Part shown: piece after piece, positions 13,624 through 40,009 of the stretch
How the letters are laid out: each line of letters begins with the position of its first letter
How positions within the stretch are numbered: the stretch's first letter is position 1
From: a virus
Taxonomy: Duplodnaviria; Heunggongvirae; Uroviricota; Caudoviricetes
DNA: 42,120 nucleotides
Strand: one strand, 5' to 3'
IMG/VR virus record: IMGVR_UViG_2534681763_000019
Made by a program: the position numbers and the translations under genes
Notes under the pieces: generated by a model
The model's database searches: none
What the model was told of the DNA's origin: nothing
What the model saw: only the letters and a program-made list of their open reading frames with translations

Positions 13624-14064
13624 TTGATGAAATCTTGGAAAAACCGAGGATTTAAAAAAAGGGTTCTTGAATATGTTTACTGTTTCTCCGCTGCTCCATT
13701 TTTAGCCATGTTCTACACGTTGTCAGAAAACCAGCTGACAATGTTTATAATTTTCTTCACTGTGAGTTTTTATCTCACTCTGATGGCATCCGTTTTTTTA
13801 ACAAAACGAGGATTTAACAAAGTATTCAAAGAATTCTTTAATTTATTATGGAACTATGAAACGGCCTTCGTTTTTTGCTATGGCCTTTATACTTATCTTT
13901 ATAGAATTGATGGGCAGAAAACTTTATCAAACCTCCTTACCATTATGTTTTCAGCTCACCCATGGACACTTATTTTCGGCATCGGACTCTTGGTTTTCAC
14001 AGTAATTTTCAGGTTTGCTCTGAGTGTTGCTGACTTGCTAGTTGAAGTTAAGTCAGATATATAA
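13624..14064 (+). CDS. AT-rich small membrane protein (moron between S and V)
   Basis: 146-aa ORF on the opposite strand to all flanking tail genes, strong RBS (taaggagg), markedly low GC, about four hydrophobic helices (FSAAPFLAMFYTL, FIIFFTVSFYLTLMASVFL, FVFCYGLYTYLY, WTLIFGIGLLVFTVIF). Confidence 0.65.
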   Translation: MMKSWKNRGFKKRVLEYVYCFSAAPFLAMFYTLSENQLTMFIIFFTVSFYLTLMASVFLTKRGFNKVFKEFFNLLWNYETAFVFCYGLYTYLYRIDGQKTLSNLLTIMFSAHPWTLIFGIGLLVFTVIFRFALSVADLLVEVKSDI

Positions 14065-21808: not shown

Positions 21809-22836
21809 TGGGAAAGAGTAAGAAGAACCGCGCTGCGTCGACGAAACAGATTCAGCATAAAAGCCAGACTTCAGCCGAAGCATTCAGCTTCGGTGATCCC
21901 GTTCCTGTTCTGGACCGCCGCGAATTGCTGGACTATGTGGAATGCGTACAGATGGATCGCTGGTATGAGCCGCCCGTCAGCTTTGACGGACTGGCACGAA
22001 CCTTCCGCGCCGCCGTGCATCACAGCTCACCGATTGCGGTGAAATGCAACATTCTGACCAGCACCTACATCCCTCACCCGCTGCTCAGCCAGCAGGCTTT
22101 TTCACGTTTTGTGCAGGACTATCTGGTATTCGGTAACGCCTACCTGGAGAAACGCACGAATCGATTCGGTGAAGTTATCGCCCTTGAGCCTGCGCTGGCA
22201 AAATACACCCGACGCGGATTAGATCTGGATACCTACTGGTTTGTGCAATACGGCATGACTACGCAGCCGTATCAGTTCACGAAAGGCAGCATCTTTCATC
22301 TGATGGAACCGGATATCAACCAGGAGATCTACGGCCTGCCCGGTTATCTTTCTGCCATTCCGTCAGCCCTGCTCAACGAGTCCGCCACGCTGTTCCGCCG
22401 CAAGTATTACATTAACGGCAGTCATGCAGGCTTCATCATGTACATGACCGATGCAGCGCAGAACCAGGAGGATGTGAACAACCTCCGCAATGCGATGAAA
22501 AGCGCCAAAGGTCCAGGCAACTTCCGCAACCTGTTTATGTACTCACCTAACGGCAAAAAGGATGGTCTTCAGATTATCCCGTTGTCAGAAGTCGCGGCGA
22601 AGGATGAATTTCTGAATATCAAAAATGTCAGCCGCGACGACATGATGGCTGCGCACCGCGTGCCGCCGCAAATGATGGGGATTATGCCTAATAATGTTGG
22701 AGGGTTTGGGGATGTAGAGAAAGCTAGTAAGGTTTTTGTTATAAATGAACTGATACCTTTACAAAAACGGTTACAAGAACTAAATTATTGGATAGATGAA
22801 GATATAATCCAATTTGAAGATTATAGTTTAACTTAA
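21805..22836 (+). CDS. Q: Portal protein Q
   Basis: 343-aa ORF downstream of P. The last ~150 nt are sharply AT-rich compared with the rest of the gene. Confidence 0.85.
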   Translation: MMGKSKKNRAASTKQIQHKSQTSAEAFSFGDPVPVLDRRELLDYVECVQMDRWYEPPVSFDGLARTFRAAVHHSSPIAVKCNILTSTYIPHPLLSQQAFSRFVQDYLVFGNAYLEKRTNRFGEVIALEPALAKYTRRGLDLDTYWFVQYGMTTQPYQFTKGSIFHLMEPDINQEIYGLPGYLSAIPSALLNESATLFRRKYYINGSHAGFIMYMTDAAQNQEDVNNLRNAMKSAKGPGNFRNLFMYSPNGKKDGLQIIPLSEVAAKDEFLNIKNVSRDDMMAAHRVPPQMMGIMPNNVGGFGDVEKASKVFVINELIPLQKRLQELNYWIDEDIIQFEDYSLT

Positions 22837-22873
22837 ATAATGATAACACAGGGCCTAGAATCGGCCCTAAAAA

Positions 22874-23545
22874 TTAAAAACCAAGCTCATCTCTGATTCT
22901 TGGGAATTTTTTCATTACTCGAATATCAGTTAATAAATGCCAACGCCAAAAAACAGAAAATGGATATGATACATTACACATTGGCTTTAGCTTATTCTTG
23001 GCCTCTTGGATTTCTTGTTCTGTGCTTCGATCACTGACAAGTTTCATTCTCCAACCAGTAAAGTAAAACAATTCATCTTGTAACTTCTCTGAGAGATTTG
23101 CTCTTGTAATGCCCCTCAACCCCGTACTCGAAGAGTTAAAACACTTATCTAATAATTTGACTGTATTTAAAACCTTTCTACTTGGTCTTTTTCTTCTTGG
23201 GTATACTTGAACACCACTCGTTATAGCGTTCCCTGCGAGATGAACAATCTCACTGAAAACATCAACATCACTCTTTGTGCAATCAAGTAAGTTTTCAAAA
23301 GAATCACTTTTAATACTATTGCATCGACTGCAAGCTAAAAATAGATTGTTCCAATCATATTTGAGCTCATCAAGATCACGATGTGGAATAAAATGTTCTA
23401 TCTCTGGATCCATAAGATTACCTTGCTCACAGAGATAACATTTTCCATGAAATATTTCGTCTAAAGCATTTACAACTGTTTTATGGTTATATACTTTTCT
23501 CGACAAGCATTGAGGTGCAGGAATATTTCTAGTAACATTAAACAT
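22874..23545 (-). CDS. HNH endonuclease, Septu PtuB-like
   Basis: 223-aa ORF with HNH signature (HGKCYLCEQ...EIEHFIPH...WNNLFLACSRCNSIKSD); RBS aaagggaag; overlaps the upstream ATPase gene by 8 nt; very low GC. Confidence 0.7.
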   Translation of the reverse strand: MFNVTRNIPAPQCLSRKVYNHKTVVNALDEIFHGKCYLCEQGNLMDPEIEHFIPHRDLDELKYDWNNLFLACSRCNSIKSDSFENLLDCTKSDVDVFSEIVHLAGNAITSGVQVYPRRKRPSRKVLNTVKLLDKCFNSSSTGLRGITRANLSEKLQDELFYFTGWRMKLVSDRSTEQEIQEAKNKLKPMCNVSYPFSVFWRWHLLTDIRVMKKFPRIRDELGF

Positions 23546-24776
23546 CGTCTTCCCTTTCGCTATAATCTAAATATTTACTCTTAGCGATCATAAAAGCTGC
23601 TTTTGAACTTTTATCAAGAAAATCAATACTCTTCTGTAACGTTTTCATTATAGAATGAAATCTATCGTCGAAGACATTATTTTCTACTAAAGTCATTAAT
23701 TCTTTAACTAATGCATTTAGCTTATCCGAAGATACATCCTCACCCAACAATCCCTTTATAATTGCTGTGTAAGAATACAATGATAAATCACCCATCTGAT
23801 CCAATGTTGAGAGATTAAATATAATCGCATCAGATACTGATTGGATTACGAAAGGTGAATGCGTAGAAACAATAAATTGTATTTGCGGAAAAGATGATGA
23901 AAAAAAACTAAATACTTTCTTTTGCAATGTTACATGAAGATGAGCATCAATTTCATCAATAAGTACTATCCCTGTCATATCATGTTTTCTGATTTTATCA
24001 AGCTCTGCTTTTATCAATAAATCAGTATAAATAGAAAGAATTGATGAAAAACCAGATGACAACTTATCAAGTCCAAATGGTTCCTTATTATTTTGTAAAA
24101 GATAGATTTTCAACTTGTCGAGATCAAAATCCATTCTAATACTTTCATCTTCAAAAAGTTCTTTTAAGTCATCATTAATACTCTCAATAATATCAAAGGC
24201 TCTTTTATAGTCATCATCCTTGCCCACTCCCTTACTGACTAAAGCATAATTCCACAATGTAACTATGTATCTTTCAAAATACATACCAGCATCAATCTTA
24301 GAATTATTTCTCTGTGCGTTCCCATACTCAGTTAACAACAAATCGAGGCTGCTAATCTTACCATCATTTTTTATTTTCGCTTCTCGAATAGCAGGAAATA
24401 ATCTTATAATTGATTTTTTCTTTTTTGCAGCAACCCTGAAATCAACCACATCATTAAAAGTAATATCAAAGCTCTCAAATTCTTTTAATTTTTCTTTCAG
24501 TCTCTCAATTTCTTCGTTTAAATAGCTATAATTACCATCCCCTCTATTTGAATACTTTAAGTTTTCTTGACTGGAATTCAATTCCTTTTGTAGCTGCTCC
24601 TTAGTATAAGGATCATGTGAATTAATCGATTTTTCTATAAACTCATAAATATTCTCGATCAACCTAGTTTTACCAGAGCCATTATCTCCTGATATTATTA
24701 GATTCTTACCATCAAGATTTAATGTGTAAGGCTCATCGTTCCTTTTAAAGAAGATAGTTTCGATGAAATGTCGCAT
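23538..24776 (-). CDS. ABC-type (AAA_15/21-like) ATPase, Septu PtuA-like
   Basis: Walker A GDNGSGKT, signature-like LSSGFSS, Walker B IVLIDEIDAHLH, H-loop STHSP. Start placed at the second Met (GGAGG 4 nt upstream); the ORF track starts 15 nt earlier at 24791. Confidence 0.7.
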   Translation of the reverse strand: MRHFIETIFFKRNDEPYTLNLDGKNLIISGDNGSGKTRLIENIYEFIEKSINSHDPYTKEQLQKELNSSQENLKYSNRGDGNYSYLNEEIERLKEKLKEFESFDITFNDVVDFRVAAKKKKSIIRLFPAIREAKIKNDGKISSLDLLLTEYGNAQRNNSKIDAGMYFERYIVTLWNYALVSKGVGKDDDYKRAFDIIESINDDLKELFEDESIRMDFDLDKLKIYLLQNNKEPFGLDKLSSGFSSILSIYTDLLIKAELDKIRKHDMTGIVLIDEIDAHLHVTLQKKVFSFFSSSFPQIQFIVSTHSPFVIQSVSDAIIFNLSTLDQMGDLSLYSYTAIIKGLLGEDVSSDKLNALVKELMTLVENNVFDDRFHSIMKTLQKSIDFLDKSSKAAFMIAKSKYLDYSEREDDV

Positions 24777-24866
24777 TATTCCTCCCGTCATACTTAATAG
24801 CTTTTAGATAATATGACATTACATGTTAGATTTCATCCGTTTTGTGAACATATCCACTGCCGCGCG

Positions 24867-24885
24867 CTCGTATCCCCGCCACGCC
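24867..24885. other. Putative cos (cohesive end) core
   Basis: Plus strand CTCGTATCCCCGCCACGCC is the reverse complement of GGCGTGGCGGGGATACGAG, sharing the first 13 nt with the 186/P2 cohesive end as I recall it (GGCG[T/A]GGCGGGGAAAGCA.). Orientation relative to Q matches the P2 left end. Confidence 0.4.
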
Positions 24886-25228
24886 TGCCCGCTTTATGTA
24901 GTGGTTTTCATGCGCCTGCATGACATAAGCAAAAGCCCGCCACTCCTGGCAGGCCTCAGCAAAAACGATCCTCTAACGATCATGCGATCTCATTCGTCAT
25001 AGTCATGCACAGCCAAGGGAAGCGTAAATCCGTATCTGAATGACCGCTGAAAAGCTAATCATACGGGTTTACAAAGATGAAAGTCCGCTGTGAGCGAAAA
25101 GCGGATATTTCCATTGTTTTATCTTGATCTAGTAAAAACAATACCCTCTTTACAAACAAAAATAATGAGTTACTATTTGCAGCACCTTTTAACCCAAAGG
25201 TTTATAATTAAAAAGGAATGGCATACCG

Positions 25229-25882
25229 ATGAATAAATACAAACTTTTCGCACAGCTATCAAGATATTCATTTGAAGCGCAGATTGATGATTTCGAAAAA
25301 TATATCCTAGGAGCAGGCGGCCAAAACAGAGTTGACTTATCGGAATTAAAAAAAGCATATGAAGATGAAAAAAAGAATGCTCCTGACGATTATATTAATT
25401 ACTTAGAAGACTATTATTCAGAGCAATATGATTTCTTAGTTAACATACAACCAAATATTTTTAATAAATCTGCTTTGGTATCTTTATACTCATGCTTAGA
25501 GCACAACCTAAACGACTATTGCAATATATGTCAAAGGATTGTAAACACCAATATATCAGTAACCGATTTTAATGGTGATGGCATCCACAAAGCAAAAAGA
25601 TATTTAACAAAATTAATGGATATAAACTTTGGCCTGTCACAAGAGTGGCGATTCATGACAGAGTTTAACAAAGTAAGGAATTGCATAGTTCATGCTAATG
25701 GAGACATTAAAAAAATGAGCACAGCTGTAGCCTTAAAAGATATCATTGATAAAACACCTACTCTTTCATTAAACAATGAAAATAATATAATAATCTCCTT
25801 AAATTATTTAAAAGATACTATCACAAAAATTAGAAAACTCTTTCAATGGTTATATACACATCTGGATCAATCATCGAAATGA
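25229..25882 (+). CDS. Hypothetical protein with HEPN-like R-x4-H motif
   Basis: 217-aa ORF, very AT-rich, with C-terminal motif KVRNCIVHANGD (R-x4-H) typical of HEPN RNase domains; sits at the old/tin-equivalent position between cos and A. Confidence 0.55.
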   Translation: MNKYKLFAQLSRYSFEAQIDDFEKYILGAGGQNRVDLSELKKAYEDEKKNAPDDYINYLEDYYSEQYDFLVNIQPNIFNKSALVSLYSCLEHNLNDYCNICQRIVNTNISVTDFNGDGIHKAKRYLTKLMDINFGLSQEWRFMTEFNKVRNCIVHANGDIKKMSTAVALKDIIDKTPTLSLNNENNIIISLNYLKDTITKIRKLFQWLYTHLDQSSK

Positions 25883-26134
25883 ATACGATAACATCTCAGT
25901 TTGTTATTGGTCTATTTTTGAAAACAGCTATCGATGATATTAGTCTGTTCTTCGTCAATTAATATGCAATCCGTTCATGACACAGGGCTGCTGTTACAGC
26001 CCTGACAACCTTAGACTTCAATCGATTCAGAGATCTCTAACGCATCATCACCCGTTGAACTCACAGCGATAAGTAGACGCTGGCGGCAATAACACAGAAG
26101 TGTAGCGGGAATTTGAACCACATAATTTGGTTTG

Positions 26135-27001
26135 TTAGATGGCTTTGCTTCGATATTCAATTTCTAAAATCGCCTTTGTCATTGCCGCAATAGTTATAGC
26201 TTCTACCATAGTCAATTCAGGCTTGTTCAAGCTTCCGTGTCCAGCAGTAGGTAATTTGTTACGTAAATCATAAATATCTTTAACAGCATCAATAAGATTC
26301 TTAGGTAATTTTGACATTTTTTCGAACTGTTTAAAAAAACCACCCAATGACTCATTTGCCACATTCGGGTTTTGAGTGATTTCCTTAGCCATAGTTTCTA
26401 AAACATTAGAGGCTGCGTGCAGTGCACCTGCCGGATCATTATTATCCAAGCAATTATTCATTCTATCTATTTGCTGAACGATATTTGGGTGCAATCTCTT
26501 TAAGTAATCACTAGCCAATTCTTCATTGAAATTTTTGACACTTTCAAAAACATCGCAATCTAAATAAAATTTAGGATTGACTGACATCCATGTATATTTC
26601 CAATCATTTTCTAAATTATCTTTTTCCGCAATACGCCTGCCAGTGTCCTGATCTATCTCATCAACATATTTACACATATAATCGGCGTAGTAGTGTAAAT
26701 ATCTAAATGATATTTCTGGGCAAAAATTACTAACTGATGCAAGGCCGCCATATTCTTTTGTAGTAACTGTAGGGACTTCTTCATCACATAAAGATGAGAA
26801 AGTGGTTCTTTCCCAAAATTCGCCCAACTCTTTTTCTTTCCTAGTTGCCATACCAGCTATCATATTGATGCTTGAGAGCAAAACTACACTCTGATAGTAT
26901 CGAGGACATCTGTATGAACTAGCATATGGGCATATTGATGATGCTTTACGATTAATACGCTCTTTTTCCCACCAATTTTTATCAGGAATAATTCTTTGCA
27001 T
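26135..27001 (-). CDS. Hypothetical protein (accessory cargo)
   Basis: 288-aa ORF, AT-rich, convergent with the HEPN-like gene, Cys/Tyr-rich N-terminus and helical C-terminus with LRNKLPTAGHGS; no family assignable by eye. Confidence 0.5.
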   Translation of the reverse strand: MQRIIPDKNWWEKERINRKASSICPYASSYRCPRYYQSVVLLSSINMIAGMATRKEKELGEFWERTTFSSLCDEEVPTVTTKEYGGLASVSNFCPEISFRYLHYYADYMCKYVDEIDQDTGRRIAEKDNLENDWKYTWMSVNPKFYLDCDVFESVKNFNEELASDYLKRLHPNIVQQIDRMNNCLDNNDPAGALHAASNVLETMAKEITQNPNVANESLGGFFKQFEKMSKLPKNLIDAVKDIYDLRNKLPTAGHGSLNKPELTMVEAITIAAMTKAILEIEYRSKAI

Positions 27002-27489
27002 AATTTAGCTACTATCTCACGAGTGAATGAATGTTTAGCCTTCTGCACAGTTTATCAGTTCCGGCATGCCTACTGCTACCCCACTGATTCAACTTCAAGT
27101 TATGAGTTAAAGCGATTCGGTTTCGCTAGATGACACACTAGTGTTAATTTATGGATAAAAATTTATCACTTAAAATTAACTAATGCCTGTTGCGACCAAA
27201 AGTGTGCTGGAATATTATTTTCGTCTGGCCTATTATCAAGCTAATTATCCAAATTAGAGTTACTCTCATTCATCAGCAACAAATAAATACACCTGTTCAC
27301 TTTCTCAAAGTGTTCCTGTTTTATTTTTAAAGCAAACAACGCCGCCTATTCGTCCGAATGTACAACAAACATCAGGTTCTGACACAAAGTGGACGATCAC
27401 TTATCAAAATGACCGCCCACCTTACACCTCATTTCACTCGTTGCCCAAACTCCCCCCAACAGGATAAATCCTCTTGGGGGCAACGTTTC

Positions 27490-27723
27490 TTAATGCAGCC
27501 AGCTGTCGTCTTCCCACACCTTCTGCATAATTTTCAGCACTTGTTTTCTTTCTTCGTCCAGTTGCAGTACGGTCAGTTCCACACCGTTAGAGCTACCTTT
27601 GCGGATACGAATTACCGTTTTGGGATACAGGGGGCGCAGATTGCGGTAAAGCTCGGATTCAAGGGCATCCAGGGTAGACTGGCTAATCTTCTGCTCTTTA
27701 TCGATCATTATTTCAATGCGCAT
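27490..27723 (-). CDS. DinI-like protein (Tum-region)
   Basis: Translation from the internal Met (MRIEIMIDKEQ...IMQKVWEDDSWL) follows the DinI pattern (MRIEV... ...ETWESADDWF); the ORF track's longer N-terminal extension was not used. Confidence 0.65.
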   Translation of the reverse strand: MRIEIMIDKEQKISQSTLDALESELYRNLRPLYPKTVIRIRKGSSNGVELTVLQLDEERKQVLKIMQKVWEDDSWLH

Positions 27724-27733
27724 AAAAGTCACC

Positions 27734-27922
27734 TCAGCTGATGACATCCATTGAGCGGTTGTATTCGTGGGTTCTGATTTTTGCCATGAGTTCATCAGTC
27801 AATTCAGAAACCCACTGCAGAGCCAGCCCCTTCTCTTCATCACTACACTCACTAGCCGCTACAAGCTTAAGAAAAAAATCAATGCGCTGGAGCTTCAAAG
27901 ACTCCAAAAAATAGTCCTGCAT
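27734..27922 (-). CDS. Small hypothetical protein, first gene of LexA-box operon
   Basis: 62-aa ORF from MQDYFLESL... with a strong RBS (AGGAGGAAAG) 4 nt upstream; the longer 96-aa ORF-track version would read through the LexA box. Confidence 0.5.
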   Translation of the reverse strand: MQDYFLESLKLQRIDFFLKLVAASECSDEEKGLALQWVSELTDELMAKIRTHEYNRSMDVIS

Positions 27923-27963
27923 CTTTCCTCCTATAACACCACGAGCAATACTGTATACATGAC

Positions 27964-27983
27964 CACTGTTTATATTTACAGTA
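27964..27983. promoter_or_regulatory. LexA (SOS) box CACTGTTTATATTTACAGTA
   Basis: CTGT-N8-ACAG with AT-rich spacer, 17/20 to consensus TACTGTATATATATACAGTA; overlapped by -10-like TATAAT/TATACT elements; a half-site (CTGTATACATGA) lies just upstream. Confidence 0.55.
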
Positions 27984-28075
27984 TATAATAATCTTACTGA
28001 TGTAAAACGTTTTTTTACGTTCATCAGCCTGATATGCCTGGTATTATTAAGAGCACGAATTGTTAATCCGCGTAA

Positions 28076-30514
28076 TTAATACAGGTTCCGCCACTTATCA
28101 TCTTCCTGTAAACGCTGATTCCGATAGAAGATACGCAGGCCAGCCCCTGACGGAATACTGCCTCCGCGAAGGAGTAAATCGACCTCTTTCTCGCTGCCAT
28201 CAAATCCTCTGGACTTCAGTTCATAGACGAGCTGCTGTCGCTGATGGTCTGTAATTCGCTGTTTGTAGTCTTTGCGCCGTTTCGGTTTCACCTGGCGTAA
28301 CCTTGCAGCCAGTTCCCGACGCTCTTTTTTGCTCATACTGTGCAGATAATCGTGCAACTCCTTGTCATCCTGGCGGGTAATGTCAGTTCTGGTGTCCCCA
28401 TCAGCTGATTTATCTTTCTCCTGTTGGTTCAAATTTTCAGCAAGGGGACAGTTATTGCCACGAGTCCGAGTCCGAGTCCGAGTCCGAGTCCAAGGGGCGC
28501 AAGCGCCCTTGTCGGCTGCCGCCTCCTGAACGTCAACGGCCTTACGAACCATTTTCCACTTCACTGCATGAGTGCAGATCTTGCCCTCTGCAATGGGTGA
28601 CCAGATGCCATAAATACGAATACCGTGATCGCCATAGGCGGTCGGCTCTTCGTTGATTTCATAAGCAGTTCTGATGAGGTGATATTTGCGGGGAACCAGT
28701 ACGCCGCCCTGCTTCATGATGTAGGTGGCAAAACAACCAGCATCAGCAGCAGCCAGGATTGCATCAAGGCGCGGGTTATCCAGTACCGGCGCACCTGCTT
28801 TTTTGTCCCCCTGCTGCCTTGCCGCCTGACCAGCCAGCAATCGCAGTTCACGGTAAGCCTGACGCCCCGGAATGCCAAAGAAGCGGAATTGCTGAACACG
28901 ATGCAGAGACGCCCAAGCATTAACGTATTCAGCGTTATCACGCAGGGATTTACCCGTTTCCTTGCTGATCTCGCCAGCCAGACCACGCCCGTCAATGTTC
29001 TTACTGATGTATTTCGCGATGTAGCTTGTTGGCGTACCTTTGCGCGGGTTTATCAGCTCGGACTTAAAGCGTGGTCCCGTGTTATTACCCAGCTCCTCGC
29101 GGTCTTCACGAATGGCAAACTTACGCAACAAAGCAGTAATGGCGCGGCGATCTTTTTTGCGCATAAAACACAACAGGTGCCAGTGAACTGTACCGTCGTG
29201 ATGCGGCTCAGCCACCCGCACGCCATACCAGCGCAACCCGGCTTTGTGCATCGCCTTACGAAATGCAGCAAACATACCGACCAGATAATCACTGCTTTGT
29301 CTTACCGTCGCATTTGTCCAGGTTGGGTTGGGCCTGCCGTTATTTAGCGTGGAATGGAAACGTGACGGACAGGTGATGGTGTAGAAAACGGCGCAGTCAC
29401 CGCGCATTTCCGCGATAAGCTCCAGACCTTTAACACAGGCCATCATCTCATTGCGGCGATGCGCAGGGTTGCTGCTGCTGGCGTTTACCACATCCTCCAT
29501 GTCCAGCGTGTCGCCGTCTTCGTTCACCAGTTCATGAGAACGGAAAAACTCCAGCGACTTACGGCGCTGCTCACGTTTATGCATCACGGCTTCATAGCTG
29601 ACATAAGGAGATGCTTTTTTGCTAACCAGGCAGACAGCGCGCAACTGCTCTTCCCGCCATTCGCAACGCATCTTCCATAATTTCCGATACCACCAGTCGG
29701 CGCACAACATACGCGCCAGCGAACCCGGAATGAGTTCATAGGGCACGGGTTTACGGCGGTTTCTTTTCCGACGGAGTTGCTCAAACGCAGGCGGGATAAC
29801 ATCCAGACGCAGGGTTTCCGCTGCCACCTTTTCCCACGTCTTGCGGATTTCTTCTGGCTTAACGTCATCGGTGGCATACAAATCACCACAAGCGGCATCA
29901 AGGCACATGCTCATATGCGCAGCAACAAGGGTAGACAGACGCTTCACCTGATCCTGACTCATTTCAGGCAGGATCAGCAGGCCGTCCAGCCCTTCATGGC
30001 TTGCCATAAAGCGAAAAGAAGTGGATAGCTGACAGTCGCGTACATGCTCCAGTCGTTCCAGACATGGCTTAATCGTCTCACGCAAATAGCGGGAATAAGC
30101 CTTTGGCCTGCCCAGGCTGCTGAAGTATTCAATACGTTGCATCAGCGGCTTGCTGATATGGGAAGGCTGGGCATTGACGTCCGCCAGAATGACCATATCT
30201 GGATTAAAACGCTGCTGCTCATGCGCCAGCTTTGCCCGGCTAATGAGTTTATCCTGCTCCATTTCGCGTTGGACAGGATCACGGGATTCATTAAAGAAAT
30301 AACGCTCCCAGACCTGATCACTCAGTGCCTCGCGGCGCAGTTGTTCCAGCTCGTTATCGACAGCGTACAGAGTGATCAGGTTTGAAAGCGCAGAAACCGG
30401 CGCAACTTCCGCCGGGTCCAGATAAGGGTTAATGGCCTTTTTCGGGCTGTTCCATGAGAATGCTGCGGCGACCTCGTTAAAGCCGCTGCAGTTGTTCATA
30501 TCAGCATGGCTCAT
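28076..30514 (-). CDS. A: Replication initiation protein A (rolling-circle nickase)
   Basis: 812-aa ORF with HUH-like motif (TVHWHLLCF); largest early gene, coupled to the upstream dam gene by 4-nt overlap. Confidence 0.85.
28461..28491. repeat. Hexanucleotide tandem repeat (CGAGTC)x5 inside gene A
   Basis: cgagtccgagtccgagtccgagtccgagtcc; encodes (TR)5 in the A protein and contains five tandem GAGTC pentamers. Confidence 0.9.
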
Positions 30515-33860: not shown

Positions 33861-34493
33861 ATGTTAAACATCAGAATGGGTTCCGATACGGGAGGTAAGG
33901 CAGCTATTGAGAGGCTGCTTGAGGCTTATGGATTCACAACTAAGCAGGCATTAAGCGAGCACCTGAATGTCTCAAAAAGTACTATGGCAAACAGAGTGTT
34001 ACGTGACAGTTTTCCTGCTGACTGGATAATTCAGTGTGCACTAGAAACCGGTGTTTCGTTACTTTGGTTAGCCACAGGACAGGGAAGCATGAAAGAAGGA
34101 TACGAGCCTGAGAAAAGATCTCATAACGAGAACAAACAAGCAATTAAACCGTTATCCAAACTCATAACTCCATCTATTCCTAAAGGAACCTTGGAAAATG
34201 GACAACTCAGTATTGATGAAGAGATTTTCCTAGACCACAGCATATTACCTGCAGATTATGAAGAATCGATGTTCTTAGAAACCCCTACTGATTGTTATCT
34301 CATCGATAAATCAGTTAAACAAGTCAGCAATGGATTCTGGCTTATCAATATTGATGGAATGATTATTATTGCAAAAATCATGCGGATTCCCGGCAATAAG
34401 ATTGTAGTAAATCAAGATGAAGCATCTTTCGAGTGCTCTGCTGATGATGTGGAAGTTATTGGGCGTGCAGTCAAAGTAATAAAGAGTATCTAA
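33861..34493 (+). CDS. cI: CI-like immunity repressor
   Basis: 210-aa ORF divergent from apl and directly upstream of int; N-terminal HTH-like segment (LSEHLNVSKSTMANRV). Confidence 0.7.
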   Translation: MLNIRMGSDTGGKAAIERLLEAYGFTTKQALSEHLNVSKSTMANRVLRDSFPADWIIQCALETGVSLLWLATGQGSMKEGYEPEKRSHNENKQAIKPLSKLITPSIPKGTLENGQLSIDEEIFLDHSILPADYEESMFLETPTDCYLIDKSVKQVSNGFWLINIDGMIIIAKIMRIPGNKIVVNQDEASFECSADDVEVIGRAVKVIKSI

Positions 34494-34495
34494 AC

Positions 34496-35512
34496 ATGAC
34501 TGTCAGAAAACAGCCAAACGGTAAATGGTTGTGCGAGTGCTATCCCAATGGACGCAATGGCAAGCGCGTGCGTAAGCAATTTGCTACGAAAGGCGAAGCC
34601 ATTGCTTTTGAAAGCTTCACAATGGAAGAAGTGAACAAAAAACCATGGCTGGGGGAAAAGGAAGATCGGCGACACCTATCAGAATTAATTGAGCAGTGGT
34701 ATTCCCTGTATGGTCAAACACTCGCAGACCCCAAGCGCCTCATGGCGAAACTTAGAATTATCTGTAATGGTCTAGGCGATCCCATCGCTTCAGAACTGAC
34801 AGCCGGTGACTTTACGAAATACCGCGAAGCACGGTTAAAAGGTGAAGTACGAAATGAAGATGGCACGTTTATGTCGCCCGTTAAGCCCCGCACGGTAAAC
34901 CTTGAACAGCGCAATCTATCATCTGTTTTTGGTACACTGAAAAAGTTGGGCCACTGGTCAGCCTCCAACCCGCTTGCTGGGCTGCCAACATTTAAAATTG
35001 CTGAGAGTGAATTGGCGTTCCTGACCCCGGAAGAAATTAAACGTCTGCTGGATGCCTGCGCCGATTCTCAAAGCTCCAGCCTGCTTTTGATTGCAAAAAT
35101 ATGCCTGGCCACCGGCGCACGCTGGAGCGAAGCCGAAAACCTGCAGAGTCATCAGGTATCAAAATACCGTATCACTTATACCAAGACCAAAGGCAAGAAA
35201 AACCGAACTGTGCCTATTTCTAAGGATTTATATGAAGAACTGCCTAAGAATAGGGGGAAGTTATTCACCCCATGCAGAAAAGCCTTTGAGCGTGCAGTAA
35301 AGCGGGCTGGTATCGATCTGCCAGAGGGTCAATGTACTCACGTTCTGCGTCATACATTCGCTAGCCATTTTATGATGAATGGTGGAAACATATTGGTTTT
35401 GCGGGATATCCTAGGACATTCAGATATAAAAATGACCATGGTCTATGCACACTTCGCCCCAGACCATTTAGAAGATGCCGTAACTAAAAATCCTTTATTT
35501 AATTTGAGGTAA
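34496..35512 (+). CDS. int: Tyrosine integrase (P2/186 family)
   Basis: 338-aa ORF with tyrosine-recombinase C-terminal motifs (ATGARWSE...HVLRHTFASHF...LGHSDIKMTMVYAH); adjacent to attR. Confidence 0.88.
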   Translation: MTVRKQPNGKWLCECYPNGRNGKRVRKQFATKGEAIAFESFTMEEVNKKPWLGEKEDRRHLSELIEQWYSLYGQTLADPKRLMAKLRIICNGLGDPIASELTAGDFTKYREARLKGEVRNEDGTFMSPVKPRTVNLEQRNLSSVFGTLKKLGHWSASNPLAGLPTFKIAESELAFLTPEEIKRLLDACADSQSSSLLLIAKICLATGARWSEAENLQSHQVSKYRITYTKTKGKKNRTVPISKDLYEELPKNRGKLFTPCRKAFERAVKRAGIDLPEGQCTHVLRHTFASHFMMNGGNILVLRDILGHSDIKMTMVYAHFAPDHLEDAVTKNPLFNLR

Positions 35513-36444: not shown

Positions 36445-37716
36445 ATGGGACCCACTAAGAAGGGTCCAAAAACCGAGGGTCCCAAAATGGCAAAAATCGC
36501 TAAGAAGCTCACTGACACTGAAATCAAAAGCACCAAGCCAGCCGATAAAGAAATCAACTTGTTTGACGGTGATGGTCTGATTCTACGAATCGCTCCTTTG
36601 GCGAAAGGAGGCAAGAAAAATTGGTATTTCAGGTATGCAGTACCAGTGAGCAAGAAAAGAACCAAAATGAGCCTTGGGACATATCCTCACCTTACCCTTG
36701 CAAGAGCCAGAGCCTTACGTGATGAATATCTCTCCTTTCTGGCAAATGGTGTTGATCCCCAAATCCATAACAACGATAAGGCGAAGGCATTAAAGAGTGC
36801 TACTGAGCACACTCTCCAAGCCGTAGCGCGGAAATGGTTAGATGAGAAGGTAAAGACATCAGGTATCTCACAAGACCATGCAGCAGACATCTGGCGCAGC
36901 TTAGAGAGAAATGTCTTTCCCGGTCTGGGTAATGTCCCTATCAATGAGATCCGACCTAAGCTCTTAAAACAACACCTTGATCCTATTGAGCAACGAGGCG
37001 TATTGGAAACTCTACGCCGTATCATTTCACGTCTGAATGAAATCTTCCGGTGGGCAGCTACTGAAGAACTTATTGAGTTCAACCCGGCTGACAACCTTGG
37101 TCAAAGATTCAGTAAACCAAAAAAGCAAAATATGCCTGCCCTTCCCCCAAGCGAATTGCCAAGGTTTATGGAATCTTTGACGAATGCGTCAATCCGGTTG
37201 GAAACACGTATGCTAATTGAATGGCAATTGTTGACATGGGTTCGTCCGGGTGAAGCCGTTCGCGCAAGGTGGTCTGATATTGATACAACCAACAGCATTT
37301 GGAACATTCCTGCTGATTTCATGAAAATGAAAAAGCTTCACAAAGTTCCTTTGAGTAAAGAAGCTTTGCGCATCCTTGAATTAATGAAATCAATAAGTGG
37401 GCATAGAGAATGGGTTTTCCCCAGCATAAAAGCGCCTCTTAATCATATGCATGAACAAACAGCCAACGCAGCTATCATCCGAATGGGGTTCGGAGGCGAG
37501 CTTGTAGCTCACGGTATGCGTTCTATTGCACGAACAGCGGCAGAGGAGGCTGGTAAATTCAGAGCTGAAGTTCTTGAGGCAGCGCTTGCCCACTCGAAAA
37601 AAGATGAAATTATCGCAGCATACAATCGTGCAGAATATCTGATAGAGCGACAGAGTTTGATGCAATGGTGGAGTGATTACGTTCAAGCTCAAAGATCAAA
37701 TGCTCTGGTAGCCTAA
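36445..37716 (+). CDS. P4/CP4-57-like tyrosine integrase
   Basis: N-terminus (MAKIAKKLTDTEIKSTKP...LFDGDGL...WYFRY) follows the P4-family integrase pattern (probable start at the internal Met, 36487); C-terminus has recombinase motifs (ELVAHGMRS...ALAHS...AYNRAEY); sits beside the ssrA att remnant like intA of CP4-57. Confidence 0.85.
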   Translation: MGPTKKGPKTEGPKMAKIAKKLTDTEIKSTKPADKEINLFDGDGLILRIAPLAKGGKKNWYFRYAVPVSKKRTKMSLGTYPHLTLARARALRDEYLSFLANGVDPQIHNNDKAKALKSATEHTLQAVARKWLDEKVKTSGISQDHAADIWRSLERNVFPGLGNVPINEIRPKLLKQHLDPIEQRGVLETLRRIISRLNEIFRWAATEELIEFNPADNLGQRFSKPKKQNMPALPPSELPRFMESLTNASIRLETRMLIEWQLLTWVRPGEAVRARWSDIDTTNSIWNIPADFMKMKKLHKVPLSKEALRILELMKSISGHREWVFPSIKAPLNHMHEQTANAAIIRMGFGGELVAHGMRSIARTAAEEAGKFRAEVLEAALAHSKKDEIIAAYNRAEYLIERQSLMQWWSDYVQAQRSNALVA

Positions 37717-37754
37717 GTATCAGAATAGCTAATATAATCCTGAAGGTAAAGAAA

Positions 37755-38171
37755 ATGGAAACCCTATTCAAAGTTTTTGAAAAATTTAGTTCCAGACCAC
37801 TTTTTTTTATTTTTTTCGGACTCTCACTTTGTGAATTTTTTCAGAAACAATCTGTTCTGATGAATCCATCAGCAGATAACATCGCGAAATTATTCGCAGC
37901 CATGATATTAGTTGTTTTTTTTACTTGGGGATTTGAATGGCTAATCTTCAAGTTCAATGTAAACCTTGAACCTCATGATCAAGGCGATATTGGACCAACA
38001 ATTGGAACGGCTACTTTAGCTGTATACTTAGTTTATGCCTTTCACTTTCTCAGTGAAAATCCTGAAGCATTAAATTTAAAGTTATTAACTAACTCTGGCT
38101 TTATATACAGCACAACTCTATTATTATTCTCATTAGAATGCATGAAGCTTAGAAGACTTAAACAAAAATAA
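37755..38171 (+). CDS. Small hydrophobic protein
   Basis: 138-aa AT-rich ORF with 3-4 hydrophobic helices, directly downstream of the integrase. Confidence 0.5.
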   Translation: METLFKVFEKFSSRPLFFIFFGLSLCEFFQKQSVLMNPSADNIAKLFAAMILVVFFTWGFEWLIFKFNVNLEPHDQGDIGPTIGTATLAVYLVYAFHFLSENPEALNLKLLTNSGFIYSTTLLLFSLECMKLRRLKQK

Positions 38172-38242
38172 ACAACATCATTGTGATGATAAATATAAAA
38201 TAGGCATGGCGAAAAAAAATCACCACGCCTAAAATATAATAA

Positions 38243-40009
38243 TTATGGTAGCATCATTGATACATAATCCACACCAATCCTTGAGCTATACTGAGACGCT
38301 ATAGCCTGATATCTTTCTGCATAACCAGTTCTCAGTTGAGATTTAAGTTTGAGTCGGACAGGAACATTTTGCACGTTGCCATCCATATTACTTAAAAACA
38401 CGGCAGAAATAATATTTTTTTCTTCGCCATCAACTGTTGTTCCATGATTCAACACCACCATATAATCAACAACAGGAAGCGTTTTATCCCCTTCGAAAAT
38501 AGAGAGATATTTTCTTTGATTTTTATGCATTACATATATATATTTCGAATGTTCAGCAAATGGCAATGCTTTACTCTGACTGGCGTTAAAAAGCTCCAGA
38601 ACTTTAATGAGCCTGTGCGGACTTAATCTTACATGGTGAGGGTCGTTACCCTGAGTAGGAACCAAATCACATGCCGCAGATACACATAAATACCATTTGT
38701 TCGACTCTGTATCAAAGAAAATAGTGCCAGTAGAAATATGACCATCTTCAAAATTCTTTGAAGACAAATTCATATTTAAAGCATGATACATTTCGTGATA
38801 AGTATCATTATTTGATGGCAGATCCATTTTTGAAGAGCAATATTGGAGCAATGCAGCAACTCCGCTGTTAGCGTATTCATTTGAATAGCTATCAAAAACA
38901 CTTTTGATAAATTCATCCAGCGTATTATTATTTTTAAGTCTTTGATAAAGCTCTTCTGATAAATTACCAAATACAAAGTCAATATTTCTACATCTAATAT
39001 CAGGCGAGTCTGATTTTAATATCTCATTTAACCACGCAGCTTGACCGTAATGATCGTTAGCCAAATGATTTACAAAAGATAAAGCCTCAGCTTCGATTGC
39101 ATTCTGAATTTCAGATTTTATTAACTGATAATAAGATGGTTTCCATTCAATGAGAGAATCATTGAGAGTTTGCCAAATCCTATCTCCATCGTTTTCATGA
39201 TCATCTTGAACCTTATGAAATAGGGAGACAAAGATATTACCACATTGAATCCATTTTACTCCGCTTTCATCACCCCGAATGACATTGCCAGATGTGTTGC
39301 TAGAAATAATTGCATTTCTAGACACAGCATATTCTGCAATCATTTTTGCAATGAAGTTTTTATCCTTTTGATCCTCCAACACAGCATCATCATGTATTAA
39401 TCTTTTAATTCTTCTACAAGGCTTACTGTCTTTAATATAGGCTATTGTTTCATCTCTTGTGAGAGCTTTATTACCATTATCATTTAAGTTCGGTAATACA
39501 ACGTCTTCCCAATAACTTTGGACATCTTCATTATCGTAGTCAATGATCAAGCTGTTGATATCCAGAGCACCTTTGAGAGTCGATGATATCTGCATCCAAA
39601 CCGTTTCTAAATTCTCTCTAGTATATATTACAATCATATTTAAATGATCGGAGTCTTTCAAATCTTGTAATAGTTTAAGTGTTTTATCAGGTGCATTATT
39701 ATCAAGATGATAATCTACAATAATAAGATCTGATTTTCTAATCCGATCCACATCGAAATTAACAGAACCATTGTCAACATCACAAATCATATTTTTAGAT
39801 TGTAAAAAGCTCTCAAGAGTAGCGGCTCGTTTAGATGAGTCAATTTTGTTGTAGTCTAAATCAACTTCGTTATTCAACGCCCTGATTGATTCAGAATACG
39901 TCAGAAAATCGTCATCAATCATGACAACGGAACGAATTGCATTTTCGCAGAAAGTTTTCTGGACAAGAGAATTATAATTTGCCACTGTCATATTAGAACT
40001 CCACTCCAT
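38243..40009 (-). CDS. Receiver (REC)-domain protein with large uncharacterised C-terminal domain
   Basis: 588-aa ORF. N-terminus has receiver-domain hallmarks: acidic pocket VVMIDDD, phospho-Asp-like DLIIVDYHL, conserved Thr MIVIYT. No HTH evident in the ~450-aa C-terminal region. Start overlaps the upstream kinase-like gene by 17 nt. Confidence 0.7.
   Translation of the reverse strand: MEWSSNMTVANYNSLVQKTFCENAIRSVVMIDDDFLTYSESIRALNNEVDLDYNKIDSSKRAATLESFLQSKNMICDVDNGSVNFDVDRIRKSDLIIVDYHLDNNAPDKTLKLLQDLKDSDHLNMIVIYTRENLETVWMQISSTLKGALDINSLIIDYDNEDVQSYWEDVVLPNLNDNGNKALTRDETIAYIKDSKPCRRIKRLIHDDAVLEDQKDKNFIAKMIAEYAVSRNAIISSNTSGNVIRGDESGVKWIQCGNIFVSLFHKVQDDHENDGDRIWQTLNDSLIEWKPSYYQLIKSEIQNAIEAEALSFVNHLANDHYGQAAWLNEILKSDSPDIRCRNIDFVFGNLSEELYQRLKNNNTLDEFIKSVFDSYSNEYANSGVAALLQYCSSKMDLPSNNDTYHEMYHALNMNLSSKNFEDGHISTGTIFFDTESNKWYLCVSAACDLVPTQGNDPHHVRLSPHRLIKVLELFNASQSKALPFAEHSKYIYVMHKNQRKYLSIFEGDKTLPVVDYMVVLNHGTTVDGEEKNIISAVFLSNMDGNVQNVPVRLKLKSQLRTGYAERYQAIASQYSSRIGVDYVSMMLP

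What the first reader, a model, noticed from the sequence alone, without database searches (positions are those of the whole stretch)
26135..27001. 288-aa uncharacterised cargo protein convergent with the HEPN-like gene
Low-GC ORF with a Cys/Tyr/Trp-rich N-terminal region and a helical C-terminal region containing LRNKLPTAGHGS. I cannot place it in a family by eye. The C-terminus is vaguely reminiscent of abortive-infection (Abi) C-terminal regions, but the spacing (R-x7-HG) does not fit the canonical HEPN motif. Its hotspot position makes it a candidate defence or anti-defence gene.
Basis: inference. Interest (0 to 1): 0.45.

Follow-up and report, generated by a model that had tools for sequence, protein, structure and literature searches.

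The report
AbiJ-like HEPN defence candidate, new sensor domain
This prophage cargo gene most likely encodes a stand-alone anti-phage "suicide" RNase of the AbiJ type. Its N-terminal half is an undescribed four-cysteine domain that hundreds of bacterial proteins attach to different cell-killing domains, so it looks like a new kind of immune sensor module.

Summary
The ORF is real: 26135-27001, minus strand, 288 aa, 35% GC against about 54% for the P2 backbone, and dN/dS of 0.16-0.36 against homologues.

This domain occurs in at least 546 protein clusters. There it is fused to TIR, SEFIR, HEPN, restriction-endonuclease, PLD and kinase domains, or to short membrane-type tails.

The gene travels alone. 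It is found in the P2 gpA-gpQ hotspot, lambdoid prophages (decayed copies), P1-like plasmids and chromosomal defence islands. The neighbouring HEPN gene is not a conserved partner.

Best reading: a single-protein abortive-infection system with a new sensor domain and a HEPN RNase. No function has been shown experimentally. It is a new variant of a known kind. Interest 0.55.

The parts
26135..27001 (-). Complete gene: 288 codons plus stop at 26135-26137. It is a single-gene unit.
   Evidence: ORF listing. RefSeq CDS WP_016569949.1. dN/dS 0.16-0.36 against homologues. No conserved partner gene across contexts.
26507..27001 (-). N-terminal domain, residues 1-~165. Alpha+beta, with invariant W10, C24, C32, R34, W63, E74, C94-P95-E96 and C149. 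Proposed sensor/regulatory module, possibly metal-binding.
26930..26932 (-). Codon for Cys24, first of the four invariant Cys (C-P motif).
   Evidence: Cys in 149 of 150 and 127 of 127 family members. Read from the sequence.
26906..26908 (-). Codon for Cys32 (C-P-R-Y motif).
   Evidence: Cys in 149 of 150 and 127 of 127 members.
26720..26722 (-). Codon for Cys94 (F-C-P-E motif).
   Evidence: Cys in 150 of 150 and 127 of 127 members.
26555..26557 (-). Codon for Cys149. It is followed by Pro in most members and by Asp here.
   Evidence: Cys in 148 of 150 and 127 of 127 members.
26138..26491 (-). C-terminal HEPN domain of the Abi_C/AbiJ type, residues 171-288. Proposed RNase effector.
26237..26263 (-). 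Predicted catalytic motif R247-N248-KLPTAG-H255, followed by G256.
   Evidence: R247 and H255 are invariant, and G256 nearly so, in all full-length homologues. The analogous R, N and H of the Abi_C protein SadR are required for RNase activity and defence (PMC13590631).
25983..26004 (.). Perfect 8-bp GC-rich hairpin (CAGGGCTG-6 nt-CAGCCCTG) in the 252-bp spacer between the two convergent genes. Possibly a shared terminator; weak evidence.
   Evidence: Inverted repeat search. There is no T-run and the terminator scan did not call it.

Best explanation
The gene most likely encodes a stand-alone, single-polypeptide abortive-infection (phage-exclusion) protein built like AbiJ.

The proposed mechanism has two parts:
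- The C-terminal HEPN domain is a metal-independent endoribonuclease. Its active site (R247, N248, H255) would form when two HEPN domains pair.
- The N-terminal four-cysteine domain would hold the RNase off in uninfected cells. On sensing an infection cue (a phage protein, nucleic acid or metabolite) it would permit dimerisation or oligomerisation. The RNase would then cut cellular and/or phage RNA and stop growth before the competing phage completes its cycle.

The resident P2-like prophage carries the gene as exclusion cargo in its cos-proximal gpA-gpQ hotspot, beside an independent Septu system and an independent small HEPN gene.

Shown computationally:
- the domain architecture
- the HEPN fold
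- conservation of the motif
- the modular re-use of the N-domain with many effector domains
- mobile, defence-island contexts
- purifying selection

Inferred only:
- RNase activity
- the trigger
- the sensor role of the N-domain and any metal binding
- the abortive-infection outcome
For: 2. Abi_C is the top Pfam hit for the query and for 8 of 26 homologues. One N-domain relative hits Abi_C at 2e-14.
3. R247, H255, K276 and E280 are invariant in the full-length homologues spanning several phyla (all 27 rows of the alignment). E282 and R284 are nearly so.
4. In the Abi_C protein SadR, the equivalent R, N and H residues are required for RNase activity and phage defence. Abi_C proteins show 2-6 variable residues in the motif (PMC13590631).
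5. The N-domain is fused in other proteins to TIR (about 30 of 150), CAP12/Pycsar-type TIR, SEFIR, DpnII/MboI restriction endonuclease, PLD, protein kinase, GGDEF and Schlafen domains, to single transmembrane helices, or to a conserved amphipathic tail. This is the constant-sensor, swappable-effector pattern described for AbiJ-NTD1-5 (PMC3710099).
6. Contexts:
   - the P2 gpA-gpQ hotspot
   - between Gabija-like and DUF4297+ATPase genes in E. coli NCTC9064
   - between NACHT and KAP NTPase genes in Pseudomonas
   - a tail-fibre moron in a Salmonella prophage
   - P1-like phage-plasmids
   - neighbours of 12 distant homologues that include strong hits to PtuA, PD-T4-4, PD-Lambda-1, Old, GajA, AriA and type I R-M
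7. No conserved neighbouring gene, so it acts as a single-gene unit.
8. dN/dS 0.16-0.36.
Against: - No experiment exists for this protein or any relative with the same N-domain.
- The Pfam Abi_C score is below the gathering threshold (18.9 against 24 bits).
- The R-to-H spacing (7 residues) is outside the canonical Rx4-6H and at the extreme of the Abi_C range. The loop holding H255 is modelled with low confidence (pLDDT below 50 at residues 254-256).
- The HEPN-fused members lack R23, and the enterobacterial/Vibrio branch that includes this protein also lacks H145. Both residues are nearly invariant in the wider N-domain family (139 and 148 of 150). Its N-domain may therefore work differently.
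- About 15 of the 150 family representatives are N-domain only, with no conserved neighbour. This fits less easily with a pure sensor role.
- The gene is rare (24 of 5426 E. coli genomes). It is decayed in 8 of them and truncated in one further assembly.
- No antitoxin-like partner was found that would explain how a constitutive RNase is tolerated. Autoinhibition is assumed.
Confidence: 0.6

Rival explanations
1. The 288-aa protein and the convergent 217-aa HEPN protein (25229-25882) form one two-gene system, for example two RNases acting as a hetero-pair or a toxin with its regulator.
For: In E. coli complete genomes the 217-aa gene is found only where the 288-aa gene is also present (10 of 10 records). 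The pair stays together when the adjacent Septu system is replaced by GmrSD (L039).
Against: - The 288-aa gene occurs without the 217-aa gene in 15 of 25 E. coli records, and in every other genus examined, each time with different neighbours.
- Distant homologues of the 217-aa protein on Halomonas and E. coli plasmids have no such partner.
- The genes are convergent and 252 bp apart, so they are separate transcription units.
- All co-occurrences are in 99-100% identical copies of one prophage lineage, so linkage by descent is enough to explain them.
Confidence: 0.08
2. It is a toxin used for stabilising mobile elements or for competition between them, such as an addiction module or plasmid/prophage exclusion. 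It would not be an infection-triggered immune sensor. The N-domain would serve as an intramolecular antitoxin or a stress sensor (redox or metal).
For: - It is carried on many kinds of mobile element (P2-like, lambdoid, P1-like phage-plasmid, plasmid, integrative islands).
- HEPN domains are common toxin-antitoxin toxins (one search hits; PMC3710099).
- Four invariant Cys could form a redox- or metal-sensitive switch.
- SadR also restricts plasmid transformation.
Against: - There is no adjacent antitoxin-like gene in any context.
- The repertoire of fused effectors (TIR, SEFIR, Pycsar-type TIR, restriction endonuclease, PLD, transmembrane tails) and the neighbours (Septu, Gabija, PD-T4-4, Old, R-M) are those of anti-phage immunity.
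- The two roles are not mutually exclusive.
Confidence: 0.17
3. The N-terminal domain is itself the conserved catalytic or toxic module, for example a metal- or Fe-S-dependent enzyme using E74, E96, D114 and D117. The C-terminal domains, including this HEPN, would be accessory targeting or RNA-binding modules.
For: - The N-domain has invariant acidic residues and a DE-x-D motif besides the four Cys.
- N-domain-only proteins exist as solitary genes.
- Some HEPN domains are non-catalytic RNA binders (PMC3710099).
Against: - The HEPN catalytic R, N and H are invariant in all full-length homologues.
- The partners are overwhelmingly known killing domains (TIR, SEFIR, restriction endonuclease, PLD, transmembrane), which are effectors rather than targeting modules.
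- There is no fold similarity to any enzyme.
Confidence: 0.1
4. It is an anti-defence or other phage-benefit gene, such as a lysogenic-conversion factor, or a decaying remnant with no current function.
For: It is prophage-encoded cargo. Pseudogenised copies are frequent: 8 of 24 E. coli genomes, plus L040.
Against: - It lies in chromosomal defence islands outside phages.
- It has a conserved RNase motif and is under purifying selection.
- tblastn at E<=0.01 found no homologue in 50,697 deposited phage records.
- The intact P2 copies are 99-100% identical across nine complete genomes from unrelated sources.
Confidence: 0.05

Closest known systems
AbiJ (Lactococcus lactis Abi-859) and the Abi_C (PF14355) family of HEPN abortive-infection proteins, as classified by Anantharaman et al. 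2013 (PMC3710099)
   Same: Single polypeptide of about 280 aa. C-terminal HEPN domain of the Abi_C type with an R-polar-x(n)-H-G motif. A variable N-terminal domain that also occurs fused to TIR, restriction-endonuclease, PLD and kinase domains. Found in mobile elements and defence islands.
   Different: - The Abi_C Pfam score is below threshold. The PADLOC AbiJ model hits only 1 of 26 homologues, weakly.
- The N-terminal domain matches none of the Pfam AbiJ_NTD3/4/5 models.
- It carries four invariant Cys, a feature not mentioned for any AbiJ-NTD.
- The R-to-H spacer is 7 residues.
SadR of Staphylococcus aureus, an Abi_C-domain RNase (Nat Commun 2026, PMC13590631)
   Same: 266-aa stand-alone Abi_C protein on a mobile element. 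Its motif RNEYGDAH is essential for ssRNA cleavage and for phage and plasmid defence. It is the nearest experimentally characterised functional analogue.
   Different: Its spacer is one residue shorter (R-N-x5-H). Its N-terminal region is unrelated. No sequence similarity beyond the domain level was detected here.
AbiJ-NTD1 to NTD5 concept: sensor-like N-terminal domains shared between HEPN and other effector domains
   Same: The same architectural logic. One N-terminal domain recurs in front of HEPN, TIR, restriction-endonuclease, PLD and kinase domains, and was proposed to recognise phage components and release the toxin domain.
   Different: - This is a different domain as far as could be tested. 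It gives no hit to the NTD3/4/5 models.
- Its partner spectrum is dominated by TIR and short membrane-type tails.
- It lacks the DUF4145, Ymh and deoxyribosyltransferase fusions listed for NTD1.
- Identity with NTD1 or NTD2 could not be excluded, because no models or sequences were available.
HepS (Gifsy-1 prophage HEPN protein; PDB 9oik), plus RnlA/LsoA
   Different: They belong to different HEPN subfamilies with different accessory domains. RnlA and LsoA need antitoxins, and no antitoxin-like partner is seen here.
PADLOC candidate PDC-S32 (single-gene phage-defence candidate)
   Same: Similar length (285-position model). The weak match is colinear over the C-terminal region (query 201-268 to model 199-263; best E 3.5e-4 among homologues).
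   Different: Only the C-terminal part matches, and weakly. The N-terminal domain is not shared.

Membership tests
HEPN superfamily | All-alpha four-helix up-down HEPN fold | tested here: met
HEPN superfamily | Canonical Rx4-6H catalytic motif with a polar residue after R | tested here: not met
   The motif is R247-N248-K-L-P-T-A-G-H255, which is R-x7-H. The polar N after R and the invariance of R and H are as expected, but the spacer is one residue longer than the canonical range.
Abi_C / AbiJ-type HEPN (PF14355) | Match to the Pfam Abi_C model above its gathering score | tested here: inconclusive
   - Query: E 0.0017, 18.9 bits against a cut-off of 24.
- 8 of 26 homologues hit at E<0.1.
- A 97%-identical cluster and a 52%-identical C-domain relative carry a precomputed PF14355 hit, which is 'faint' for the exact protein.
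- One N-domain relative scores 2e-14.
Abi_C / AbiJ-type HEPN (PF14355) | R-polar-X(2-6)-H motif in the last ~120 residues, as defined for Abi_C proteins in PMC13590631 | tested here: met
   R-N-X6-H at residues 247-255 of 288, at the upper edge of the reported 2-6 range. It is invariant across homologues.
Abi_C / AbiJ-type HEPN (PF14355) | RNase activity and phage-resistance phenotype | not testable with these tools
   No experimental data were found for this protein. Accession searches gave nothing in main texts. The locus is listed untested as 'hypothetical + hypothetical + DinI ...' in Table S5A of Rousset et al. 2022.
AbiJ-NTD3/4/5 N-terminal domains (Pfam AbiJ_NTD3, AbiJ_NTD4, AbiJ_NTD5) | Sequence match of the N-terminal domain to these models | tested here: not met
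   No Pfam family covers residues 1-165 at E<=1 in the query, or at E<=0.001 in 150 family representatives.
AbiJ-NTD1 / AbiJ-NTD2 (Anantharaman et al. 2013; no public model at hand) | Homology to the representative sequences (for example Bcep1808_2091 for NTD1) | not testable with these tools
   The alignments are not in the held supplement.

Indirect evidence against identity:
- NTD1 is described as about 140 aa and mostly helical, fused to DUF4145, Ymh and deoxyribosyltransferase domains. None of these fusions is seen among the 150 representatives.
- TIR fusions dominate here, and the paper never mentions cysteines.
Septu (PtuA/PtuB), the adjacent system | Being a PtuA ATPase or PtuB HNH component, or consistently linked to them | tested here: not met
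   PtuA and PtuB are the separate genes at 23538-24791 and 22874-23545 (E 7e-122 and 2e-82). The target has no Ptu hit. It occurs without Septu in most contexts, and with GmrSD instead in L039.
Toxin-antitoxin HEPN/MNT or RnlA/RnlB-type modules | Adjacent cognate antitoxin gene | tested here: not met
   No conserved adjacent gene. The small upstream ORFs in three contexts are unrelated to each other, and none exists in the window.

The most novel reading that the evidence does not exclude
Residues 1-165 would represent a previously undescribed protein domain with a fold not seen in solved structures, organised around a Cys4 centre (Zn or Fe-S, with C-P motifs at the Cys ligands). On this reading the domain acts as an infection sensor or oligomerisation switch for a large family of single-protein bacterial immune systems. 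That family has at least 546 clusters at 50% identity. Its interchangeable outputs are TIR or SEFIR NADases, HEPN RNase, restriction-endonuclease or PLD nucleases, kinases and membrane-disrupting tails. This E. coli P2 prophage protein would be an experimentally tractable member of the family.
Probability: 0.4. Interest if true: 0.75.

Novelty: new variant of a known kind. Interest (0 to 1): 0.55.

Why it matters
If the reading is right, the gene adds an untested single-gene exclusion system to the P2 gpA-gpQ hotspot. It sits in an E. coli background where phage panels and genetics are routine.

The larger point is the N-terminal domain. It is confidently modelled, has no annotated family and no structural neighbour, and is attached to most of the classic immune effector domains across many phyla.

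Finding its trigger and cofactor would characterise hundreds of currently 'hypothetical' proteins at once. It would also test the long-standing, mostly untested proposal that AbiJ-type N-terminal domains are the phage-sensing parts of HEPN, TIR and nuclease suicide proteins.

Tried and rejected
- Phage records: tblastn of the protein against 50,697 phage genomes found no match.
- PDB by sequence: only chance-level hits (Cullin-3, a designed protein, FliH; E 0.2-1.4). Rejected.
- Pfam DUF5600 (E 0.04; 4 homologues at 0.007 or weaker) and the PHROG tape-measure hit: rejected as low-complexity helical noise.
- PADLOC PDC-S66, PDC-S35, bSEFIR and ThsB hits among N-domain relatives: the bSEFIR and PDC-S66 hits inspected map to the C-terminal TIR/SEFIR part, and only a minority of members match any of these models. 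No PADLOC model therefore appears to cover the N-domain.
- Genome collection: the scan with the single protein found nothing. The diverse N-domain alignment was too variable for pattern scanning. The closer alignment A1 worked.
- AlphaFold-database fold search: the library was not available.
- Literature: searches for the WP accessions and for motif strings (CPRYY, NFCPE and others) found nothing relevant.
- Alignments of AbiJ-NTD1-5: not in the held supplement.
- Conserved small upstream partner or antitoxin: the three candidate ORFs are unrelated to each other.
- Rfam scan of the cargo block 22800-28100: no RNA family.
- Promoter and terminator scans: counts were at shuffle expectation, so no regulatory claim is made.
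- C-domain profile search: found only close relatives and fragments, and did not bridge to classical AbiJ sequences.
Full report
**1. Observation**

The window is an E. coli P2-like prophage, 100% identical to NZ_CP025916 and four other complete genomes. Portal gene Q ends at 22836, and the DinI-like gene, a small ORF and replication gene A occupy 27490-30514. Between them lies a low-GC block of 34.3% GC, against 53.7% for the structural region. This is the cos-proximal gpA-gpQ locus that Rousset et al. 2022 defined as a defence hotspot in P2-like phages (PMC9122126).

The block holds three units:
- a Septu system: PtuB at 22874-23545 and PtuA at 23538-24791 (PADLOC E 2e-82 and 7e-122)
- a 217-aa gene at 25229-25882 (+) with a canonical HEPN motif, RNCIVH
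- the target, convergent with it, at 26135-27001 (-)

The target is a clean 288-codon ORF. It has 35.3% GC and 29% GC3. Its N-terminal 170 residues are enriched in Cys, Tyr and Trp (3.5%, 7.6% and 2.9%). LRNKLPTAGHGS lies at residues 246-257.

The ORF is a real gene:
- RefSeq annotates it as WP_016569949.1, hypothetical.
- Full-length homologues of 42-88% identity occur across Enterobacterales, Vibrio, Shewanella, Pseudomonas, Nitrosomonas, Burkholderiales, Desulfobacterota and Deferribacteres.
- dN/dS against five homologues is 0.16-0.36.

**2. The C-terminal half is an Abi_C-type HEPN domain**

Sequence models give only weak hits, but they agree with each other:
- Pfam Abi_C: E 0.0017, residues 227-279, 18.9 bits against a cut-off of 24. 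Eight of 26 homologues hit Abi_C.
- PADLOC PDC-S32: colinear, best E 3.5e-4. The PADLOC AbiJ model gives one weak hit.
- A 97%-identical cluster and a 52%-identical C-domain relative carry precomputed PF14355 hits. NCBI names a 97%-identical fragment 'abortive infection family protein'.

- HEPN toxins 5yep and 7ae2
- LsoA, the AbiA C-terminal domain, Csm6, the Gifsy-1 prophage protein HepS, and AbiV

In an alignment of 27 sequences, 26 of them full-length, R247 and H255 are invariant and G256 nearly so. H171, R180, K276 and E280 are also invariant, and H195, N199, E202, K206, E282 and R284 nearly so.

That is correct for the canonical definition (PMC3710099). However, a 2026 study of 2,815 Abi_C proteins defines their motif as R-polar-X-H, with X of 2-6 residues. 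The same study shows that R225, N226 and H232 of the Abi_C protein SadR (RNEYGDAH) are required for ssRNA cleavage and for phage defence (PMC13590631). Here the motif is R-N-X6-H, at the upper edge of that range.

I therefore file the C-terminal domain as an Abi_C-like HEPN domain with a probable RNase site. Two caveats apply. The Pfam threshold is not reached. The loop carrying H255 is modelled with low confidence.

**3. The N-terminal half is a separate, widespread, undescribed domain**

A profile of the family was searched against 1.84 billion cluster representatives. It found 656 proteins at E<=1e-3, 546 at E<=1e-10 and 193 at E<=1e-30. Of the best 150, all but a handful match only profile positions ~1-160.

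In these proteins the domain is almost always at the N-terminus. What follows it ranges from nothing to more than 400 residues. Pfam finds the following in those variable parts:
- TIR_2 in 19, TIR in 11, and CAP12/Pycsar-type TIR in 5
- DpnII/MboI restriction endonuclease in 3, and PLD in 2
- one protein each with a protein kinase, GGDEF, Schlafen AlbA_2, SEFIR, TPR repeats, and Abi_C (2e-14)

The PADLOC hits (bSEFIR, PDC-S66, PDC-S35, ThsB, TIR effectors) appear to map to these C-terminal parts rather than to the shared domain. This was checked for bSEFIR and PDC-S66.

Fifty-six of the 150 carry a tail of only 25-90 residues. This tail is often a single hydrophobic helix, or else a conserved basic amphipathic peptide (ELKPxxxGIxLNxKxLxxRxxxWWxRR). 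About 15 of the 150 are the domain alone.

The domain has the following conserved residues:
- invariant, among the 127 sequences of alignment A4: W10, C24, C32, R34, W63, E74, C94-P95-E96 and C149 (R34 is 142 of 150 and E74 146 of 150 among the representatives)
- nearly invariant: D114 and D117
- each of the four Cys is usually followed by Pro (142, 144, 149 and 100 of 150)

No Pfam, NCBIfam, PHROG or PADLOC model covers it. Every protein returned by a second database search with a name or precomputed Pfam field is 'hypothetical' with no domain.

As far as these tools reach, this is a domain without a described family or a structural neighbour. I could not read model coordinates, so a Cys4 metal site (Zn or Fe-S) is an inference. 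It rests on the invariance of the four Cys and their positions at helix starts.

**4. It is a solitary, mobile gene in defence contexts**

In 5,426 complete E. coli genomes the gene occurs in 24:
- nine carry it in this P2 hotspot
- eight carry a 97%-identical copy in a Rac-like lambdoid prophage, where it is broken by a stop after codon 114 and has R34Q
- one (NCTC9064) carries an 82%-identical intact copy between a Gabija-like nuclease/helicase pair and a DUF4297+ATPase pair
- six records are plasmids: the five ~95-102 kb records share an almost identical 69%-identical copy, and the one examined is a P1-like phage-plasmid with the gene next to IS3; the sixth is a 45-kb plasmid

Contexts outside E. 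coli:
- a Salmonella prophage tail-fibre moron, next to DUF4145 and a 'GT4-conflict' glycosyltransferase
- a Pectobacterium integrase-bounded island
- a Vibrio region with DUF2971 and ParDE
- a Pseudomonas island between NACHT and KAP NTPases

I took 133 neighbouring ORFs around 12 distant homologues. Among them are strong PADLOC matches to PtuA (5e-148), PD-T4-4 (4e-155, two loci), PD-Lambda-1 (2e-108, two loci), Old, GajA, AriA and type I R-M. There are also Pfam hits to Mrr, TIR, the DarT1-associated NADAR antitoxin, an LA2681-like HEPN domain and integrases.

No neighbouring gene recurs. Small ORFs upstream of the gene in three contexts are unrelated to each other, and none exists here.

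The 217-aa HEPN neighbour occurs in E. coli only with the target, in 10 of 10 records, all one 99-100% identical prophage lineage. The pair persists when Septu is replaced by GmrSD (L039). But the target is found without the 217-aa gene everywhere else, and distant homologues of the 217-aa protein lack such a partner. I therefore treat them as two independent single-gene units linked by descent.

The exact arrangement is catalogued as 'hypothetical + hypothetical + DinI + ...' in Table S5A of Rousset et al. 2022. It is not among the systems they report testing.

**5. Mechanism**

The best-supported reading is an AbiJ-like single-protein abortive-infection system. The HEPN domain is the effector, a metal-independent endoRNase. 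By established knowledge of HEPN enzymes, such a domain needs two R-x-H motifs brought together by dimerisation.

The N-domain is the constant module. It gates the effector by sensing an infection cue and/or by driving oligomerisation. This would explain why the same domain is found in front of TIR, SEFIR, restriction-endonuclease, PLD and membrane-active tails, all of which are activated by assembly.

This is the logic Anantharaman et al. proposed for AbiJ-NTD1-5 (PMC3710099). It is an inference here, not a result.

Points of doubt:
- The HEPN-fused members lack R23, and the enterobacterial/Vibrio branch also lacks H145. Both residues are nearly invariant in the wider family.
- Domain-only proteins exist as solitary genes.
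- Decayed copies are common.

The rivals are scored separately: a two-gene system with the neighbour, an element-stabilising toxin, the N-domain as the enzyme, and anti-defence or remnant.

**6. Comparison with known systems, and novelty**

The architecture and the effector are of a known kind (AbiJ and Abi_C; SadR as the characterised analogue). The protein itself is unannotated, below the family threshold and untested.

Its N-terminal domain does not match the available AbiJ-NTD models. Identity with AbiJ-NTD1 or NTD2, for which I had no sequences, cannot be excluded. The described size, fusion partners and lack of any mention of cysteines argue against it.

I rate the finding a new variant of a known kind. 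There is a substantial chance (about 0.4) that the N-domain is a new sensor-domain family of broad distribution.

**7. Verdict**

The Abi_C guess and the defence-candidate call hold. HEPN was wrongly doubted, and the N-domain was missed.
- Interest is 0.55. The effector is ordinary. The N-terminal domain makes the gene worth cloning.

Noticed in passing
window 22874-24791 (-): A complete Septu system sits next to portal gene Q. It comprises the PtuB HNH gene (22874-23545) and the PtuA ATPase gene (23538-24791), with overlapping reading frames. PADLOC E-values are 2e-82 and 7e-122.
   Followed up: partly
window 25229-25882 (+): A 217-aa protein with a canonical HEPN motif (RNCIVH) gives a weak hit to the PADLOC 'RTasHEPN' model (5e-5) and has no Pfam family. 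In E. coli it is found only in the nine genomes with this hotspot arrangement. Homologues of 25-37% identity sit on Leptospira, Bacillus, Priestia and Halomonas plasmids. It is probably a second, independent single-gene HEPN defence candidate.
   Followed up: partly
L039 (metagenome scaffold) versus window 22874-24791: In an otherwise colinear P2-like prophage, a GmrSD type IV restriction gene (593 aa) replaces the Septu pair while the 217-aa and 288-aa genes stay. This is an example of sub-module swapping inside the hotspot.
   Followed up: no
L002 6239-7105; seven further E. coli genomes; L040: Copies of the gene in Rac-like lambdoid prophages are pseudogenes, with a stop after codon 114 and an R34Q change in the invariant CPRY motif. 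They are annotated as two hypothetical proteins. One P2-hotspot copy (L040) is called as a 150-aa product only. This suggests recurrent inactivation, possibly because the protein is costly.
   Followed up: partly
L033 5978-6856 (pAPEC201602; four further ~95-102 kb E. coli plasmids carry an almost identical copy): A 69%-identical homologue lies on a P1-like phage-plasmid, directly next to an IS3 element and the ddrA/odaE region. The family therefore also rides on phage-plasmids.
   Followed up: partly
proteins P0046, P0064, P0077, P0093, P0112, P0152 and others: Many short members of the N-domain family end in a conserved ~35-residue basic peptide (ELKPxxxGIxLNxKxLxxRxxxWWxRR). Others end in a single hydrophobic helix. 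The peptide is an unannotated mini-module and may be a membrane-active effector.
   Followed up: no
window 28461-28491, within gene A (28076-30514, -): A perfect hexanucleotide tandem repeat (CGAGTC x5.2) encodes TRTRTRTR in the replication endonuclease. The length of gene A's product varies from 790 to 812 aa among otherwise near-identical prophages (L035-L040). This would fit repeat copy-number variation, though I did not check that the repeat is the cause.
   Followed up: partly
window 36445-41711: The P2-like prophage ends with CI at 33861-34493 and integrase at 34496-35512. Beyond it, a second integrase (36445-37716) precedes a 33%-GC pair on the minus strand: a Response_reg_2 (PF19192) protein of 588 aa and a HEF_HK/HATPase_c (PF19191) protein of 572 aa. 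This is an unusual kinase/receiver pair, in what looks like a second integrated island.
   Followed up: partly
window 13624-14064 (+): A 36%-GC patch inside the late (tail/baseplate) region holds a 146-aa multi-pass membrane protein, encoded opposite to the flanking structural genes. It looks like a moron at a second variable locus of P2-like phages.
   Followed up: no
window 27453-27480: A 13-bp near-perfect inverted repeat (CCCCCAACAGGAT / ATCCTCTTGGGGG) lies just downstream of the DinI-like gene. It probably acts as that gene's terminator and marks the boundary between conserved P2 sequence and the cargo block.
   Followed up: no
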